A stretch of DNA of 64,000 nucleotides from Escherichia coli (lineage in GTDB: Bacteria > Pseudomonadota > Gammaproteobacteria > Enterobacterales > Enterobacteriaceae), in NCBI RefSeq assembly GCF_965641715.1, contig NZ_OZ282453.1; one strand, written 5' to 3'. Positions 3,001-15,000 of this stretch are shown here, piece after piece. Position 1 is the first letter of the stretch. Every line of letters begins with the position of its first letter. A program made the position numbers.

Positions 3001-6000
3001 TGGTCTATGTGGTCCGGGCGGCAATCAACGACTGGGGCAATTTGTATATGTCCGAGACGCTGGGCGTCGATCTGGTCACGGCGAATACGGCAGTGACGAT
3101 GTTTGAACTGGGCGGATTTATCGGTGCGCTGGTAGCCGGTTGGGGCTCGGACAAATTGTTTAACGGCAACCGTGGGCCGATGAATTTGATTTTCGCCGCC
3201 GGAATTTTGCTTTCAGTCGGCTCGCTGTGGCTGATGCCATTTGCCAGCTACGTGATGCAGGCAACCTGCTTCTTCACTATTGGTTTTTTTGTCTTTGGCC
3301 CGCAGATGTTAATCGGCATGGCGGCGGCAGAGTGTTCACACAAAGAGGCGGCAGGGGCGGCGACGGGGTTTGTCGGCTTGTTTGCTTATCTGGGGGCGTC
3401 GCTTGCTGGTTGGCCGCTGGCGAAAGTACTCGATACCTGGCACTGGAGCGGTTTTTTTGTGGTTATCTCTATTGCCGCCGGGATTTCCGCACTGCTGTTA
3501 CTGCCCTTTTTGAACGCCCAGGCACCGCGCGAAGCGTGATGCATCTCACCTTTTCACTTCATATCCGGCAAAACTAAGAAATTTTCCAGGTTTTGCCTGG
3601 ACGCTATCTCAGGCCTGATTTGCTGCTGATTTTTACAATGCATGCCTCACGCAGGTATTCATTTCAGGAGTAACCCATGCTGGCTTTCTTAAACCAGGTC
3701 CGCAAGCCGACCCTGGACCTTCCGCTCGAAGTGCGGCGCAAAATGTGGTTCAAACCGTTCATGCAATCCTACCTGGTGGTCTTTATCGGCTACCTGACGA
3801 TGTACCTGATTCGCAAGAACTTTAACATCGCGCAGAACGATATGATTTCGACCTACGGGTTGAGCATGACGCAGCTGGGGATGATCGGCCTGGGTTTCTC
3901 CATCACTTATGGCGTGGGTAAAACGCTGGTTTCCTACTACGCCGACGGCAAAAACACCAAACAATTCCTGCCGTTCATGCTGATCCTGTCTGCCATTTGT
4001 ATGCTGGGCTTCAGCGCCAGTATGGGCAGCGGCTCGGTTAGCCTGTTCCTGATGATTGCCTTCTACGCCTTAAGCGGCTTTTTCCAGAGCACCGGCGGTT
4101 CGTGCAGTTACTCCACCATCACCAAATGGACGCCGCGTCGTAAACGTGGGACGTTCCTCGGTTTCTGGAACATTTCTCACAACCTTGGCGGTGCAGGCGC
4201 AGCAGGTGTGGCGCTGTTCGGTGCAAATTACCTGTTCGATGGCCATGTCATCGGCATGTTTATCTTCCCGTCGATTATCGCGCTGATTGTTGGTTTTATC
4301 GGCCTGCGTTACGGCAGCGACTCCCCGGAATCTTATGGCCTCGGCAAAGCTGAAGAGCTGTTCGGCGAGGAGATCAGCGAAGAGGACAAAGAGACTGAAT
4401 CTACCGATATGACCAAGTGGCAGATCTTTGTTGAGTATGTGCTGAAAAACAAAGTGATCTGGCTGCTGTGCTTCGCCAACATTTTCCTCTATGTGGTACG
4501 TATTGGTATCGACCAGTGGTCAACCGTATACGCGTTCCAGGAACTGAAACTCTCTAAAGCGGTGGCGATTCAGGGCTTTACGCTGTTTGAAGCTGGTGCG
4601 CTGGTCGGTACGCTGCTGTGGGGCTGGCTCTCTGACCTGGCGAACGGTCGCCGTGGCCTGGTGGCCTGCATCGCGCTGGCGCTGATTATCGCCACGCTCG
4701 GTGTGTATCAACATGCCAGCAACGAATATATCTATCTGGCTTCTCTCTTTGCGTTGGGTTTCCTGGTCTTTGGCCCGCAATTGTTGATTGGTGTGGCTGC
4801 TGTTGGCTTTGTACCTAAAAAAGCGATTGGCGCTGCCGATGGTATTAAAGGCACCTTTGCTTACCTGATTGGTGACAGCTTTGCCAAGTTAGGTCTGGGA
4901 ATGATTGCCGATGGGACACCGGTATTCGGCCTTACCGGCTGGGCAGGCACCTTCGCCGCACTTGATATCGCCGCGATTGGTTGTATCTGCCTGATGGCGA
5001 TAGTGGCGGTGATGGAAGAACGCAAAATCCGCCGCGAGAAAAAAATTCAGCAGTTGACAGTGGCATAAACGTAACTGGTGACTTTTGCCCGGCATGACGC
5101 CGGGCTTTTTTTATTCAATTTGACCAGATTAACGCCTGGGGGAGTTTTCCAGATATCATCAAAAGTTGATGCGCAGGAGAACGCATGATCTGGATAATGC
5201 TTGCCACCGTCGTGGTGGTGTTTGTGGTTGGTTTTCGGGTTCTGACGTCAGGCACCCGATGGGCGATTCGCCGTTTAAGCGAACGACTTAATATTGATGT
5301 TGTACCCGTAGAATCGATGATCGATCAGATGGGTAAAATGCCTGGTAAAGAGTTTTTGTATTATTTGCATCGCCCGGATGAATCTCATCTGCAAAATGCT
5401 GCTCAGGTGTTACTTATCTGGCAAATTGTGATTGTCGATGGTAGTGAGCAGAACCTGTTACGTTGGCATCGGTTGTTGCAAAAAGCGCGTCTTGCTGCGC
5501 CGATCACGGATGCCCAGGCCCGTCAGGCGCTGGCTTTTCTCCGTGAGTTAGAGCCAGATATGCAGGCGATTAATGCCTTCCAGATACGCTTTAACGCCCT
5601 CTTCCAGCCAGAAGAAGGCGTGTTTTGGTTGCATTAACTCAATGTGAGTGGCCTGTCAGAACCAGGCTTCCCACATCGCGCCAAGGTTAAAGTCGTCAAG
5701 CGTTTCCTCTTTTGTACCGTTGACGCGTGCAGTCCGGTCATTATCAACTTGCCCGCCCGTCATGTAGAAACGTAGCATTGGGCGGAATTCCGGGCCCATC
5801 GCAATAGAAATGTTCTGTGACAGCGTCAGCTTCCAGCCTGAATTATCTCCGCCTTTATCATAATCAACCCGTTGATAACCCGCCTCAAGCCAGGTGGAGT
5901 GAACGTCATTCCAGAAATACATAGGACGGACAATTACGCCATAGTTTTTGCGGTTATCACTCTTAATAGAACTGTTGTCGTAATCATGGAAGGCCAGTAA

Positions 6001-12000: not shown

Positions 12001-15000
12001 TCAGACAACATTATCTTTTCCCAGGCCTCGTCTGATATTGACGCTTGTGGAGTACATATTTTCCGTAAATCAGCTAATACGGTCTTTTTTTCATTCCGTG
12101 ACTTCCAGCGTGGTGAAGGCAAACTTCTCGCCATCAAATAGCCCCTGACTGGTTAGTTTCAGCGCGGGGATCACTGGCAGAGAAAGAAACGCCATCTGAA
12201 TAAACGGCTCATCGGGTAACGGACCGCATTCACGGGCGGCGGCTTTCAAGGCGTCAATTTGCTCGGCCAGCGACTGCGCCGTGTCGGTGCTCATCAGCCC
12301 GGCAATGGGCAACGGTAGATGACTTTGTACCTGGCCGTTACGTACCACGCACAACCCGCCGCCATCCTGAATCACCTGATTGACCGCCAGCGCCATCTCT
12401 TCGGCACTGCGACCGATCACCACAATATTATGGCTGTCATGACTGACCGTCGCAGCCAGCGCACCTTCATTCAGGCCAAAGCCGCCGAGCAAACCACAGG
12501 CCGGAGCCAGACGTTGCCCGTAACGCTCAAGTACGGCAATAAAGCACACATCATCGCGATCAAAACCATTTTCGCTGTAGACGCTGGAGCGGGAGTGCGT
12601 AATCAATTCGTTATGGATGACGTCAATGACCCGATAGCGTTTTCCGGGTGTAAATTGCTGGGCAAAGTCGCTGGCGGAAACTGGCTGACGGGCAATGGTA
12701 TTGCCATACGGCGGAGCGGATTGTGCCAGTCTCGCCGACTCTTCCGCCTGTAAGGTTTGCGCGTCAATCGGTGCGCCTTTCACCAGTACCTGCTGCACCG
12801 TGACCTTACGCGCATCGCTCAACAGGACGATATCAGCCTGCTTACCGGGTGCCAGTAAGCCCAGGTGATTCAGACCAAAGTGGCGCGCCGTAGACCAGCT
12901 GGCGACGCGATATGCCACATGCAGCGGCACATTGTGTTGTTCGATCAGGCGGCGAATTAGGGAATCGATATGCCCTTCATGGGCGATCTCCCACGGGTTA
13001 CGGTCATCAGTACAGAGCATGCATTGCGGGCTGTTAAATTCGTTGATCAACGGTGCCAGTGCGTTGAGATTGCGGGCAGCGGACCCCTCGCGGATCATCA
13101 ACGACATGCCGAGTTGTAATTTCCGGCGTCCTTCTTCCAGCTGATAACTTTCGTGGCAGTTTTCAATACCCGCGGCAATATAGGCGTTGAGTTCTTTACC
13201 ACCCAAACCCGGGCAGTGACCGTCCAGCGTCAGGTGGCGAAATGCATCCAGTTTATCGAGCAGCGCATTCTGCCCGCTAATTACGCCAGGGTAGTCCATC
13301 ATTTCTGCAAGGCCGGTAACCTGCGGATGGTCCCGCCAGGCGAGCATCTGTTCAAGGGTAAAACTGGCACCGTTAACATCGCAGCCTTCCAGAGCGGGCA
13401 CGCAAGAGCTGACCTGTAAGTACTGGTTTTGCCTTGCCTGTTTGGCACAGCGGGCAAACCAGGCGAATCCGGCTTCGCCCATCACGTTGACGATTTCATG
13501 AGGGTCGCAAATAACGGTCGTCAGGCCGCGCGGCAGAGTAGCGGTTTCAAAGGTGACCGGCGTCATCATGCTGGATTCAATATGCAGGTGAGCATCAATA
13601 AACCCTGGCACTGCCGTTGCGCCGCGGGCATCAATCCGCTGCAAAGCCGGAGCATCAGCGTATTCTGCGCCAACACCGGCAATGTAACGTCCTTTAATCA
13701 CAATTGGGCCGGAAATTTCTCCGCCATTGATCAGGTCGAGAATAGATACATTATCAATAATATAATCGGCAACAGCGTCGCCACGGGAAACGGCTAACAA
13801 TTCCTGGTATTCAGCCCGGCTAATGTGATGAAATTTATGGTTAATAGAATTATTCATATTTTTCTCATTTTGATTTTATCAATTTGATTATTATTTATCA
13901 TAAAGAAACGTCGCGAGATTATTAAAGAATATCCATTAATGTGCAATTGAAATGTGATAATTATCACTGAACCGTTGTTGTCATTTGTTTTACAAAAGCA
14001 AGGGATTAAATCTCCTCCAATGGACAAAAAAATGAATAATGACAATACCGATTACGTGAGTAATGAATCAGGGACGCTTTCGCGATTATTTAAACTACCT
14101 CAGCATGGGACCACCGTCCGCACAGAATTGATTGCGGGGATGACCACTTTTTTAACCATGGTGTACATCGTTTTTGTGAACCCGCAAATCCTCGGCGCGG
14201 CACAAATGGACCCGAAAGTGGTGTTTGTTACCACCTGTTTGATTGCCGGTATCGGCAGTATTGCGATGGGGATATTTGCTAACTTACCCGTGGCGCTGGC
14301 TCCGGCAATGGGGCTGAACGCCTTCTTTGCCTTCGTGGTCGTGGGGGCGATGGGGATCTCATGGCAGACCGGGATGGGCGCGATATTCTGGGGTGCAATT
14401 GGGCTATTTTTGCTCACGCTGTTTCGTATCCGGTACTGGATGATCTCCAACATTCCATTAAGTTTACGTATTGGTATCACCAGTGGAATCGGATTATTTA
14501 TTGCCTTAATGGGATTAAAAAACACTGGCGTTATTGTCGCCAATAAAGACACCCTGGTGATGATTGGCGATTTAAGCTCTCACGGCGTGTTGTTAGGTAT
14601 ATTAGGTTTTTTTATTATAACCGTATTGTCATCACGTCATTTTCATGCCGCGGTGCTGGTTTCCATCGTCGTCACTTCCTGCTGCGGATTATTTTTCGGT
14701 GATGTTCATTTTAGCGGCGTCTATTCCATTCCGCCTGATATTAGCGGCGTCATTGGTGAAGTAGATTTGAGCGGCGCGTTAACACTTGAACTCGCCGGTA
14801 TCATTTTCTCCTTTATGCTGATCAACCTATTTGATTCATCAGGAACATTAATTGGTGTAACTGATAAAGCTGGCTTAATAGATAGTAATGGTAAATTCCC
14901 CAATATGAATAAGGCGCTGTATGTTGATAGCGTCAGTTCGGTGGCGGGTGCGTTTATCGGCACCTCGTCTGTTACTGCCTATATTGAAAGTACTTCTGGT

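What the first reader, a model, noticed from the sequence alone, without database searches (positions are those of the whole stretch)
5113..12090. Accessory beta-glucoside-type PTS operon with a dedicated outer-membrane porin inserted between uhpT and ade
In K-12, as I recall, uhpT and ade are neighbours. Here about 7 kb encoding IIB, IIC, a GH1 phospho-beta-glucosidase, IIA and a ScrY/BglH-like porin, with a divergent LacI-family repressor, lies between them. The gene order with IIA after the hydrolase and a terminal porin is a compact complete uptake pathway for a cellobiose or aryl-beta-glucoside type sugar. The substrate is not evident from the sequence.
Basis: partly seen in the sequence, partly recalled or inferred. 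Interest (0 to 1): 0.55.

Follow-up and report, generated by a model that had tools for sequence, protein, structure and literature searches.

The report
Rare accessory beta-glucoside sugar-uptake operon
A complete, intact six-gene module for importing and splitting a cellobiose-like sugar sits between uhpT and ade in under 1% of E. coli genomes; it is a displaced copy of an operon common in related gut and plant bacteria, and is ordinary in kind though its sugar has not been tested.

Summary
About 6,975 bp (5116-12090) separate uhpT and ade, which are 45 bp apart in K-12.

**Content.** On the minus strand: IIB, IIC, a GH1 hydrolase, IIA and a LamB-family porin. A LacI-family regulator is transcribed divergently.

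**Distribution.** Only 25 of 5,426 complete E. coli genomes carry the block, 24 of them at this site.

**Origin.** The same operon is widespread in Enterobacterales. In Citrobacter, Enterobacter and Kosakonia it lies between yicS and nepI, a few kb from this site. The E. coli block still carries yicN and yicS remnants of that home locus and has no mobility genes, so it was probably gained by recombination.

**Function.**
- The GH1 matches the S. pyogenes 6-phospho-beta-glucosidase SPy1599 strongly (503 bits). Both catalytic glutamates and the same C-terminal motif are present.
- A palindrome, TGGAAACCGGTTTCCA, lies in the regulator-IIB spacer of 66 of 67 orthologous loci.
- The operon genes are under purifying selection within E. 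coli (pN/pS about 0.08).

It is not an ortholog of chb, asc, bgl or bgc. The substrate is inferred, cellobiose-like. Verdict: a new member of a known kind, of modest interest.

The parts
5069..5115 (+). uhpT terminator and 3' UTR, identical to K-12; backbone immediately left of the block
   Evidence: The 47-48 bp match is present in 5,402 of 5,426 genomes. Terminator-like hairpin at 5087-5105. Alignment with K-12. MG1655 annotates the sRNA UhpU over the equivalent stretch.
5105..5116 (.). Left copy of an imperfect direct repeat (CTTTTTTTATTC) at the junction
   Evidence: Read directly from the sequence and compared with K-12, GGGCTTTTTTTATT|ATTCCGTGAC.
5185..5637 (+). yicN-like DUF1198 gene (yicN'), a passenger from the operon's home locus
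   Evidence: Annotated as a DUF1198 family protein. 84.7% aa and 78.8% DNA identity to the window's own yicN at 15419-15871. pN/pS 0.7-1.0 among E. coli carriers, so selection is relaxed.
5656..7035 (-). LamB-family carbohydrate porin, 459 aa, with an apparent N-terminal leader (not tested with a signal-peptide predictor) and an N-terminal extension of about 55 aa
   Evidence: Pfam PF02264 LamB, E=3e-73, model positions 1-378 of 378. Weak match to maltoporin structures only. Follows IIA in most orthologous loci. pN/pS 0.01-0.06.
7036..7234 (-). AT-rich IIA-porin spacer, 136-377 bp in orthologs; no conserved RNA fold found
   Evidence: Alignment of 21 loci. RNAalifold gave no consensus structure. 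No Rfam hit.
7235..7537 (-). PTS IIA of the lactose/cellobiose family, 100 aa; overlaps the GH1 stop by 4 nt
   Evidence: TIGR00823 at 120.8 bits. 52% identity to ChbA. His76 aligns with ChbA His89.
7534..8931 (-). GH1 hydrolase, predicted 6-phospho-beta-glucosidase of the SPy1599/GmuD type, 465 aa
   Evidence: Best PDB match 4B3K/4B3L (503 bits, E=7e-150). NEP at 165-167, ENG at 364-366, and WSWLNAYKNRYG at 419-430 identical to 4B3K. Only 29-34% identity to BglB, AscB and BgcA.
8952..10283 (-). PTS IIC of the lactose/cellobiose family, 443 aa
   Evidence: TIGR00410 at 367 bits, above its cutoff of 236. Matches B. cereus ChbC structure 3QNQ, E=1e-66. 30% identity to ChbC and to BgcF.
10296..10610 (-). 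PTS IIB of the lactose/cellobiose family, 104 aa
   Evidence: TIGR00853 at 91.9 bits. Cys8 in CSAGMSTS aligns with ChbB Cys10.
10664..10679 (.). Operator O1, the perfect palindrome TGGAAACCGGTTTCCA, about 60 bp upstream of IIB
   Evidence: A site with at most 2 mismatches occurs 67-73 bp upstream of IIB in most loci, and within the spacer in 66 of 67 orthologous loci, with none in 1.27 Mb of flanks.
10697..10712 (-). CRP-like site TCTGATAGCCGTCACA, centred 33 bp upstream of the O1 centre
   Evidence: The TGA and TCACA half-sites are conserved across 22 aligned spacers. Assignment to CRP is inference.
10789..10804 (.). Operator O2 (GGAAAATCGGTTTCCA), overlapping the -35 of a promoter-like site for the LacI gene
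   Evidence: 3 mismatches to O1. Conserved in the alignment. Promoter-like TTTCCA-18-TATACT at 10799-10828.
10902..11858 (+). LacI-family transcriptional regulator, 318 aa, divergent from the operon
   Evidence: NF007075 and other LacI-family models. 26% identity to AscG. Linked to the operon in 67 loci.
11895..12101 (-). YicS-family pseudogene fragment lacking its N-terminus, a remnant of the home locus
   Evidence: NF041639 YicS_fam, profile positions 25-96 of 96. RefSeq flags it as partial. 88% aa identity to the window's own yicS at 36141-36344. Alignment.
12084..12096 (.). Right copy of the imperfect direct repeat (CTTTTTTTCATTC), containing the ade stop codon, which is TGA here and TAA in K-12
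   Evidence: Microhomology between yicS orthologs and the ade 3' end.

Best explanation
The block is a self-contained, repressor-controlled uptake and cleavage pathway for a beta-linked glucoside disaccharide, most likely cellobiose or a close relative. The proposed mechanism is as follows.

1. The sugar crosses the outer membrane through the LamB-family porin.
2. IIC translocates it across the inner membrane. During transport it is phosphorylated at O6 by the relay PEP, EI, HPr, IIA (His76), IIB (Cys8). EI and HPr come from the host core genome.
3. The GH1 enzyme (acid/base Glu166, nucleophile Glu364) splits the 6-phospho-beta-glucoside into glucose-6-phosphate and the aglycone.
4. The divergent LacI-family protein binds TGGAAACCGGTTTCCA at the operon promoter and a related site at its own promoter. 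It is presumably released by the phosphorylated sugar. A CRP-like site would add catabolite control.

On origin, the E. coli block is a displaced copy of an operon native to the yicS-nepI interval of related Enterobacteriaceae. It was gained by recombination, not on a mobile element, and has been kept by selection in a small, diverse minority of E. coli.

Shown here: gene content, family membership, motifs, operator conservation, distribution and selection. Inferred: substrate, inducer, CRP control and direction of the gain.
For: - **Family assignments:**
- **Active-site equivalences:** IIB Cys8 with ChbB Cys10, and IIA His76 with ChbA His89.
- **GH1:** NEP and ENG are present, and the 12-residue C-terminal motif WSWLNAYKNRYG is identical to 4B3K (SPy1599). 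The next-closest structure, deposited as a beta-galactosidase (5NAV), has His in place of the Lys. The title cited (Stepper et al. 2013) names SPy1599 a GH1 6-phospho-beta-glucosidase.
- **Operator:** 66 of 67 loci carry the palindrome in the spacer, with none in 1.27 Mb of flanks. O2 and the CRP-like half-sites are conserved.
- **Module conservation:** the six genes keep the same order across Citrobacter, Kosakonia, Enterobacter, Leclercia, Pantoea, Serratia, Yersinia, Erwinia and others. The flanks of the Yersinia locus checked hold unrelated housekeeping genes.
- **Selection:** pN/pS is 0.0-0.19 for the six operon genes within E. coli and 0.06-0.07 against Citrobacter. All CDSs are intact in 8 sampled carriers.
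- **Origin:** the home locus is yicS | lacI-IIB-IIC-GH1-IIA-porin | nepI-yicN-(adeQ-ade)-uhpT in Citrobacter, Enterobacter and Kosakonia. The E. coli block is bounded by yicN' and yicS'. The uhpT-to-yicN' stretch is collinear with Citrobacter genomes that lack ade and adeQ. Both backbone flanks are typical E. coli. No integrase or IS lies in the block.
Against: - No experiment or paper on this operon was found, so substrate, inducer and expression are untested.
- No NCBIfam equivalog cutoff is reached by the GH1, IIA or IIB.
- The GH1 has Trp421 after Ser420. The paper read associates that position with 6-phospho-beta-galactosidases or dual-specificity enzymes, so gluco-specificity is not assured from sequence.
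- Some automated source annotations name relatives GmuD. From my own knowledge, that is the Bacillus subtilis glucomannan-operon enzyme, so mannose-containing disaccharides are possible.
- GC content of 39-50% against about 55% in the flanks, together with the block's rarity, would be compatible with silencing in E. coli.
- No sampled donor has yicN directly next to the porin, and the nearest relatives are only about 80% identical in DNA, so the donor is unidentified.
- The 12-13 nt flanking repeats are equally compatible with deletion from an ancestral occupied site.
Confidence: 0.78

Rival explanations
1. The machinery is the same, but the physiological substrate is not cellobiose or an aryl-beta-glucoside. 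It could be another beta-linked disaccharide such as gentiobiose, sophorose or laminaribiose, or a glucomannan-derived Glc/Man disaccharide as in the Bacillus gmu system.
For: Some source annotations name relatives GmuD. The GH1 belongs to a clade separate from BglA, BglB and AscB (29-34% identity; NCBIfam scores). Many carrier genera are plant-associated.
Against: No mannose-6-phosphate isomerase, kinase or glycanase gene is linked to the operon. The loci share only the six genes, and the operator occurs nowhere else in the flanks. The closest characterised enzyme is named a 6-phospho-beta-glucosidase.
Confidence: 0.3
2. It is a lactose-type or galactoside-type PTS, and the GH1 acts as a 6-phospho-beta-galactosidase.
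For: Trp421 follows Ser420, as in LacG-type and dual-specificity enzymes. The NCBIfam 6-phospho-beta-galactosidase subfamily NF010036 scores 355 bits. The second-closest structure is deposited as a beta-galactosidase.
Against: That score is far below the cutoff of 610. LacG structures are not among the best 60 PDB matches, whereas ordinary beta-glucosidases are. The motif with Lys426 matches SPy1599 and not the beta-galactosidase homolog, which has His there. No tagatose-6-phosphate pathway genes are linked.
Confidence: 0.07
3. In E. coli the block is a cryptic, silenced passenger with no current function, like bgl, asc and chb/cel in K-12. It persists only by drift.
For: It is rare (0.46%). 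GC content is lower than in the flanks. Other E. coli beta-glucoside systems are annotated as cryptic. IS1-mediated deletions truncate it in two genomes.
Against: All six genes are intact in the 8 carriers sampled, despite 0.4-1.9% sequence divergence. Their pN/pS is 0.0-0.19, whereas the neighbouring passenger yicN' has 0.7-1.0. Purifying selection implies the genes are used, at least under some conditions.
Confidence: 0.15
4. The block is ancestral at the uhpT-ade site in E. coli, and the empty K-12-type site arose by deletion between the short flanking repeats. On this reading it is a loss, not a gain.
For: Imperfect 12-13 nt direct repeats flank the block. Carriers are diverse, island divergence tracks flank divergence, and synonymous divergence within the island reaches about 0.05-0.07.
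Against: yicN' is only 79% identical in DNA to the resident yicN, and yicS' is a second, truncated copy. That fits foreign DNA better than an ancient internal duplication. No other Escherichia species representative appeared among the 80 best GH1 loci. The K-12 junction has 3 more bases than a simple repeat-mediated deletion would leave.
Confidence: 0.2

Closest known systems
Orthologous lacI / IIB-IIC-GH1-IIA-porin operon of Citrobacter, Kosakonia, Enterobacter, Leclercia, Pantoea, Serratia and Yersinia (annotated only; no characterisation found)
   Same: The six genes, their order and their orientation are the same. Protein identity is 84-96% to Citrobacter. The operator palindrome sits at the same position.
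   Different: In Citrobacter, Enterobacter and Kosakonia the operon lies between yicS and nepI. In E. coli it lies between uhpT and ade, with a yicN copy and a yicS fragment attached and nepI missing. DNA identity is only about 80%.
Streptococcus pyogenes SPy1599, a GH1 6-phospho-beta-glucosidase (PDB 4B3K/4B3L; Stepper et al. 2013, cited)
   Same: It is the best solved homolog (503 bits). NEP and ENG are present, and the WSWLNAYKNRYG motif is identical.
   Different: It comes from a Gram-positive host, so there is no porin. This is similarity of the enzyme only, not of the operon.
E. coli bgc operon (bgcEFIHA with bgcR; Neelakanta et al. 2009, described; CFT073 locus between marB and eamA)
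   Same: It is an accessory E. coli locus with separate lactose/cellobiose-family IIB, IIC and IIA genes, a porin, a GH1 phospho-beta-glucosidase and a divergent regulator.
   Different: The gene order is IIB-IIC-IIA-porin-GH1. The regulator is a GntR-type activator, not a LacI-type protein. Identities are IIC 30%, GH1 30%, IIA 44% and IIB 43%, with no significant porin match. It lies at a different chromosomal site.
E. coli chbBCARFG (chitobiose/cellobiose) operon
   Same: Its PTS proteins are the closest K-12 relatives of these ones: ChbA 52%, ChbB 46%, ChbC 30%, with the same active-site Cys and His.
   Different: chb uses ChbF, which is a GH4 enzyme from my own knowledge (one search gives only its product name), together with the deacetylase ChbG and the regulator ChbR, which is AraC-type from my own knowledge. 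It has no porin.
E. coli bglGFBH and ascGFB
   Same: Both are beta-glucoside PTS systems with a GH1 phospho-beta-glucosidase. bgl ends with a LamB-family porin, and asc has a LacI-family repressor.
   Different: BglF and AscF gave no BLASTP match to the IIC or IIB here. From my own knowledge, they are fused glucose-family EII proteins. bgl is controlled by the BglG antiterminator. Identities are BglB 29%, AscB 34%, AscG 26%, and BglH 26-34% over fragments only.

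Membership tests
PTS lactose/cellobiose (Lac) family, TC 4.A.3 | IIC of the lacE/cellobiose IIC family | tested here: met
   TIGR00410 at 367 bits, above its cutoff of 236. Matches ChbC structure 3QNQ, E=1e-66.
PTS lactose/cellobiose (Lac) family, TC 4.A.3 | Separate soluble IIA and IIB proteins with the phosphorylatable His and Cys | tested here: met
   IIA His76 aligns with ChbA His89, and IIB Cys8 with ChbB Cys10. The family HMMs match but fall below their curated cutoffs: 120.8 against 136.95, and 91.9 against 110.
PTS lactose/cellobiose (Lac) family, TC 4.A.3 | PEP-dependent phosphorylation of the transported sugar | not testable with these tools
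   Requires uptake or phosphorylation assays.
GH1 6-phospho-beta-glucosidase | Catalytic acid/base (NEP) and nucleophile (ENG) glutamates | tested here: met
   NEP at 165-167 and ENG at 364-366, aligned to 4B3K.
GH1 6-phospho-beta-glucosidase | Ser, Lys and Tyr in the C-terminal motif shared with a solved phospho-enzyme. The phosphate-binding role of these residues is assumed, not shown here. | tested here: met
   WSWLNAYKNRYG is identical to SPy1599. The homolog deposited as a beta-galactosidase has His in place of Lys426.
GH1 6-phospho-beta-glucosidase | Membership of a curated equivalog, or demonstrated activity on Glc-6P substrates | tested here: not met
   No NCBIfam model reaches its cutoff; the best is TIGR03356 at 416.8 against 478.5. 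Activity itself cannot be tested here.
LamB/carbohydrate porin family (Pfam PF02264) | Full-length match to the LamB barrel domain, with an N-terminal leader | tested here: met
   PF02264, E=3e-73, covering model positions 1-378 of 378. The hydrophobic N-terminal leader ending in AQA is read from the sequence only.
   BglH matches at 26% and 34% identity over two fragments only, and BgcH gives no hit. The PDB search at E<=1e-3 returned maltoporins only, and no chain named ScrY or sucrose porin.
LacI-family repressor with cognate operator | LacI-family protein encoded next to its target, with a conserved palindromic operator containing a central CG | tested here: met
   Matches 17 LacI-family models, all below the equivalog cutoffs. 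The palindrome is present in 66 of 67 loci, with none in the flanks. Binding itself was not tested.
E. coli bgc operon | GntR-type BgcR regulator, the order IIB-IIC-IIA-porin-GH1, and orthologous proteins | tested here: not met
   The regulator here is LacI-type, the order differs, identities are 30-44%, and the porin is unrelated by BLASTP.
E. coli chb operon | ChbF hydrolase (GH4 from my own knowledge), ChbG deacetylase and ChbR regulator (AraC-type from my own knowledge) | tested here: not met
   None of the three is present in the block. The hydrolase here is GH1.
Mobile genomic island | Integrase or transposase genes, a tRNA or att target site, or IS boundaries | tested here: not met
   Every ORF of 80 aa or more in the block falls within the eight listed features, and none is a mobility gene. 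There are only 12-13 nt imperfect repeats at the ends.

The most novel reading that the evidence does not exclude
This operon could be the unrecognised genetic basis of the cellobiose-positive phenotype, or that of another beta-disaccharide, which separates many Enterobacterales from typical E. coli and appears in rare natural E. coli isolates. If so, its patchy loss would record niche shifts away from plant-derived sugars: complete in K-12-type E. coli, and reduced to the GH1 alone in Salmonella and some Citrobacter. Its re-acquisition in a minority of E. coli would mark environmental or herbivore-associated lineages.
Probability: 0.3. Interest if true: 0.4.

Novelty: new member of a known kind. 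Interest (0 to 1): 0.28.

Why it matters
The block adds a further beta-glucoside system to the E. coli pan-genome, alongside bgl, asc, chb and bgc. This one is intact and under purifying selection, not obviously decayed.

It also gives a clear example of a chromosomal operon that a lineage lost and then regained at a neighbouring site by recombination, with remnants of its old neighbours still attached.

In practice it is a candidate determinant for atypical sugar-fermentation profiles in E. coli isolates. It also offers a ready-made module of porin, PTS and hydrolase for cellobiose-type uptake.

Nothing about it challenges current understanding.

Tried and rejected
- **Known RNA elements in the block.** The Rfam scan gave only a sub-threshold hit on the uhpT terminator.
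- **A conserved RNA structure in the 200-bp IIA-porin spacer.** RNAalifold on 21 orthologous spacers gave no consensus fold, so I dropped this.
- **Orthology to the bgc operon.** I located the CFT073 locus and found 30-44% identity and a different regulator, so I rejected it.
- **Orthology to chb, asc or bgl of K-12.** Rejected on identity and architecture.
- **Recent import from Citrobacter.** Rejected: DNA identity is about 80% and synonymous divergence about 0.7, the same as for the core genes uhpT and ade.
- **Linked auxiliary genes as a clue to the substrate.** The neighbours in Yersinia are unrelated housekeeping genes, and the operator is absent from all flanks.
- **Literature.** Five searches found no characterisation of this operon. 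The bgc paper and the SPy1599 paper are not held in the library.
- **The two genomes with partial blocks.** These are large IS1-mediated deletions and do not inform natural loss of the block.

Full report
**Observation**

The window is E. coli chromosome. uhpABCT runs from 58 to 5068 on the plus strand. ade is at 12091-13857 on the minus strand, followed by adeQ, yicN and nepI.

Between uhpT and ade, the ORF list and the RefSeq annotation of near-identical genomes give the features below.

| Feature | Coordinates | Strand |
|---|---|---|
| DUF1198 (yicN-like) gene | 5185-5637 | + |
| Carbohydrate porin | 5656-7035 | - |
| PTS IIA | 7235-7537 | - |
| GH1 hydrolase | 7534-8931 | - |
| PTS IIC | 8952-10283 | - |
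| PTS IIB | 10296-10610 | - |
| LacI-family regulator | 10902-11858 | + |
| N-terminally truncated YicS-family pseudogene | about 11895-12101 | - |

The pseudogene runs into the ade stop codon.

In a K-12 derivative and in MG1655, uhpT and adeD are 45 bp apart. Identity to K-12 runs through base 5115 and resumes at the ade stop.

**How common it is**

Megablast of the 7-kb block against 5,426 complete E. coli genomes found at least 80% of it in 25 genomes.

- 24 carry it at the uhpT-ade site, at 98.3-99.6% identity.
- One, LH50-c, carries it elsewhere together with 183 bp of the ade 3' end.
- Two more genomes keep only yicN' and part of the porin, after large IS1-mediated deletions.
- The remaining genomes match only the 47-48 bp uhpT terminator.

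A more sensitive search found a further 36 genomes with a different IIC-GH1-IIA module, 66% identical, at another site.

**What the proteins are**

- **IIC.** It passes the curated cutoff of the lactose/cellobiose IIC family: TIGR00410 scores 367 bits against a cutoff of 236. It matches the ChbC crystal structure 3QNQ.
- **IIA and IIB.** They are 52% and 46% identical to ChbA and ChbB. The phosphorylation residues align: IIA His76 with ChbA His89, and IIB Cys8 with ChbB Cys10.
- **GH1.** Its best solved relative is S. pyogenes SPy1599 (4B3K, 503 bits). A paper in the library cites SPy1599 by title as a GH1 6-phospho-beta-glucosidase. The NEP and ENG catalytic motifs are present at residues 165 and 364. 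The 12-residue motif WSWLNAYKNRYG is identical to that of SPy1599. The next-closest structure, deposited as a beta-galactosidase, has His in place of the Lys.
- **Specificity caveat.** Trp421 follows Ser420. The paper read links that position to galacto-specific or dual-specificity enzymes, so sugar specificity cannot be read from the sequence.
- **Porin.** It is a full-length LamB-family protein (PF02264, E=3e-73) with an N-terminal extension. It is not specifically close to BglH (26-34% over fragments) or BgcH (no hit), and the PDB search found only maltoporins.

**Regulation**

The 290-bp divergent spacer holds a perfect palindrome, TGGAAACCGGTTTCCA, at 10664-10679. A 13-of-16 copy lies at 10789-10804.

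Across 67 orthologous loci from many genera, a site within 2 mismatches lies in the regulator-IIB spacer in 66. In most of them it sits 67-73 bp upstream of IIB. No such site occurs in 1.27 Mb of flanking DNA.

The second site, a TGA-N6-TCACA CRP-like element and a TATACT -10 element for the regulator gene are also conserved. This supports repression by the LacI-family protein, autoregulation and, by inference, CRP dependence.

**Where it comes from**

A scan of one genome per species found the GH1 gene at 77-93% identity in Citrobacter, Kosakonia, Phytobacter, Enterobacter, Leclercia, Pantoea, Serratia, Yersinia, Erwinia, Hafnia and others. In most of these loci the same six genes accompany it in the same order.

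In Citrobacter, Enterobacter, Kosakonia and their relatives the operon sits between yicS and nepI-yicN. That is the same neighbourhood as uhpT, with or without ade and adeQ. Salmonella enterica and several Citrobacter species keep only the GH1 gene there. K-12 has a 40-bp yicS-nepI gap.

The E. coli block is bounded by a second yicN and a partial second yicS.

- yicN' is 85% identical in protein and 79% in DNA to the resident copy.
- yicS' is 88% identical in protein to the resident copy.
- The stretch from uhpT into yicN' is collinear with Citrobacter genomes in which uhpT and yicN are neighbours.

Both backbone flanks are typical E. coli, and the block has no mobility genes. The best reading is gain by recombination from an unsampled relative. 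The join on the ade side lies at a short microhomology between yicS and the ade 3' end and terminator.

Imperfect 12-13 nt direct repeats flank the block. Ancestral presence followed by deletion therefore cannot be excluded. I give that 0.2.

DNA identity to Citrobacter is about 80% and synonymous divergence about 0.7, the same as for uhpT and ade. Citrobacter is therefore not the recent donor.

**Is it in use?**

Eight carriers differ by 1-4.5% in the flanks and 0.4-1.9% in the block. The block is therefore old and spread across diverse lineages.

All six operon genes are intact in every carrier sampled. Their pN/pS within E. coli is 0.0-0.19, about 0.08 overall. The passenger yicN' shows 0.7-1.0. 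This argues for function over neutral decay.

**Comparison with known systems**

The block is not an ortholog of chb, asc, bgl or bgc.

| System | Identities to the block | Architectural differences |
|---|---|---|
| chb | ChbA 52%, ChbB 46%, ChbC 30% | ChbF hydrolase (GH4, from my own knowledge), ChbG deacetylase, ChbR regulator (AraC-type, from my own knowledge), no porin |
| asc | AscB 34%, AscG 26% | AscF gave no BLASTP match to the IIC or IIB here (fused glucose-family EII, from my own knowledge) |
| bgl | BglB 29%, BglH 26-34% over fragments | BglF gave no match either (same family, from my own knowledge); BglG antiterminator |
| bgc | BgcF 30%, BgcA 30%, IIA 44%, IIB 43%, no porin match | GntR-type regulator, order IIB-IIC-IIA-porin-GH1 |

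The block belongs to the same kind of system.

No paper characterising it was found in five searches.

**Verdict**

The block is a new member of a known kind: an uncharacterised but annotated Enterobacterales beta-glucoside-type PTS operon, rare in E. coli. Interest is modest. Substrate, inducer and expression remain to be tested.

Noticed in passing
window 18268-35836: The nepI-yicS interval is where relatives keep this PTS operon, and it is only 40 bp in K-12. Here it holds an 18-kb island. The island encodes a 3,511-aa Ig-repeat inverse autotransporter (IatC-like N-terminus), a HilA/EilA-family regulator, homologs of type III secretion tip and translocator proteins, and a SicA-like chaperone. 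From my own knowledge, this resembles the eilA/eip/air locus of enteroaggregative E. coli.
   Followed up: partly
window 15987-16653: A RelE/ParE-type toxin gene and an HTH antitoxin gene lie between yicN and nepI. MG1655 has nothing annotated in that gap.
   Followed up: no
L090 9602-12636; L005, L006, L009, L026: Salmonella enterica and several Citrobacter species keep only the GH1 gene between yicS and nepI, at 88-93% identity to the window's GH1, with no PTS, porin or regulator. The Salmonella cluster has 2,095 member sequences. An orphan hydrolase that has been retained suggests it works with another transporter.
   Followed up: partly
L002 (E. coli LH50-c) 5949-12568: A second-site copy of the block carries the yicS'-ade junction and 183 bp of ade, inserted among unrelated sugar genes. 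Its PTS genes are nearly identical to the window's (pS about 0.013), but its porin is only 86% identical, so the copy is mosaic.
   Followed up: partly
L098 5679-8363 and 35 other E. coli genomes: A different IIC-GH1-IIA module, 66% identical in DNA and in the same internal order, lies in an IS-rich region next to dcu-type genes. In some genomes its IIC is truncated, and one record annotates the GH1 as gmuD.
   Followed up: partly
window 5185-5637: The duplicated yicN' shows pN/pS of 0.7-1.0 among E. coli carriers, against 0.12 between E. coli and Citrobacter. It appears to be drifting as a redundant copy.
   Followed up: yes
window about 4849-5114: MG1655 annotates an sRNA, UhpU, over the uhpT 3' end and terminator, ending exactly at the ade stop. 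The block's left junction lies immediately after that terminator, so UhpU is left intact.
   Followed up: no
L088 and L089: In two genomes of about 4.64 Mb, an IS1 copy truncates the porin and joins it to tnaA or to a region near mdtL. These look like large IS1-mediated deletions that removed the operon and tens of kb beyond it.
   Followed up: no
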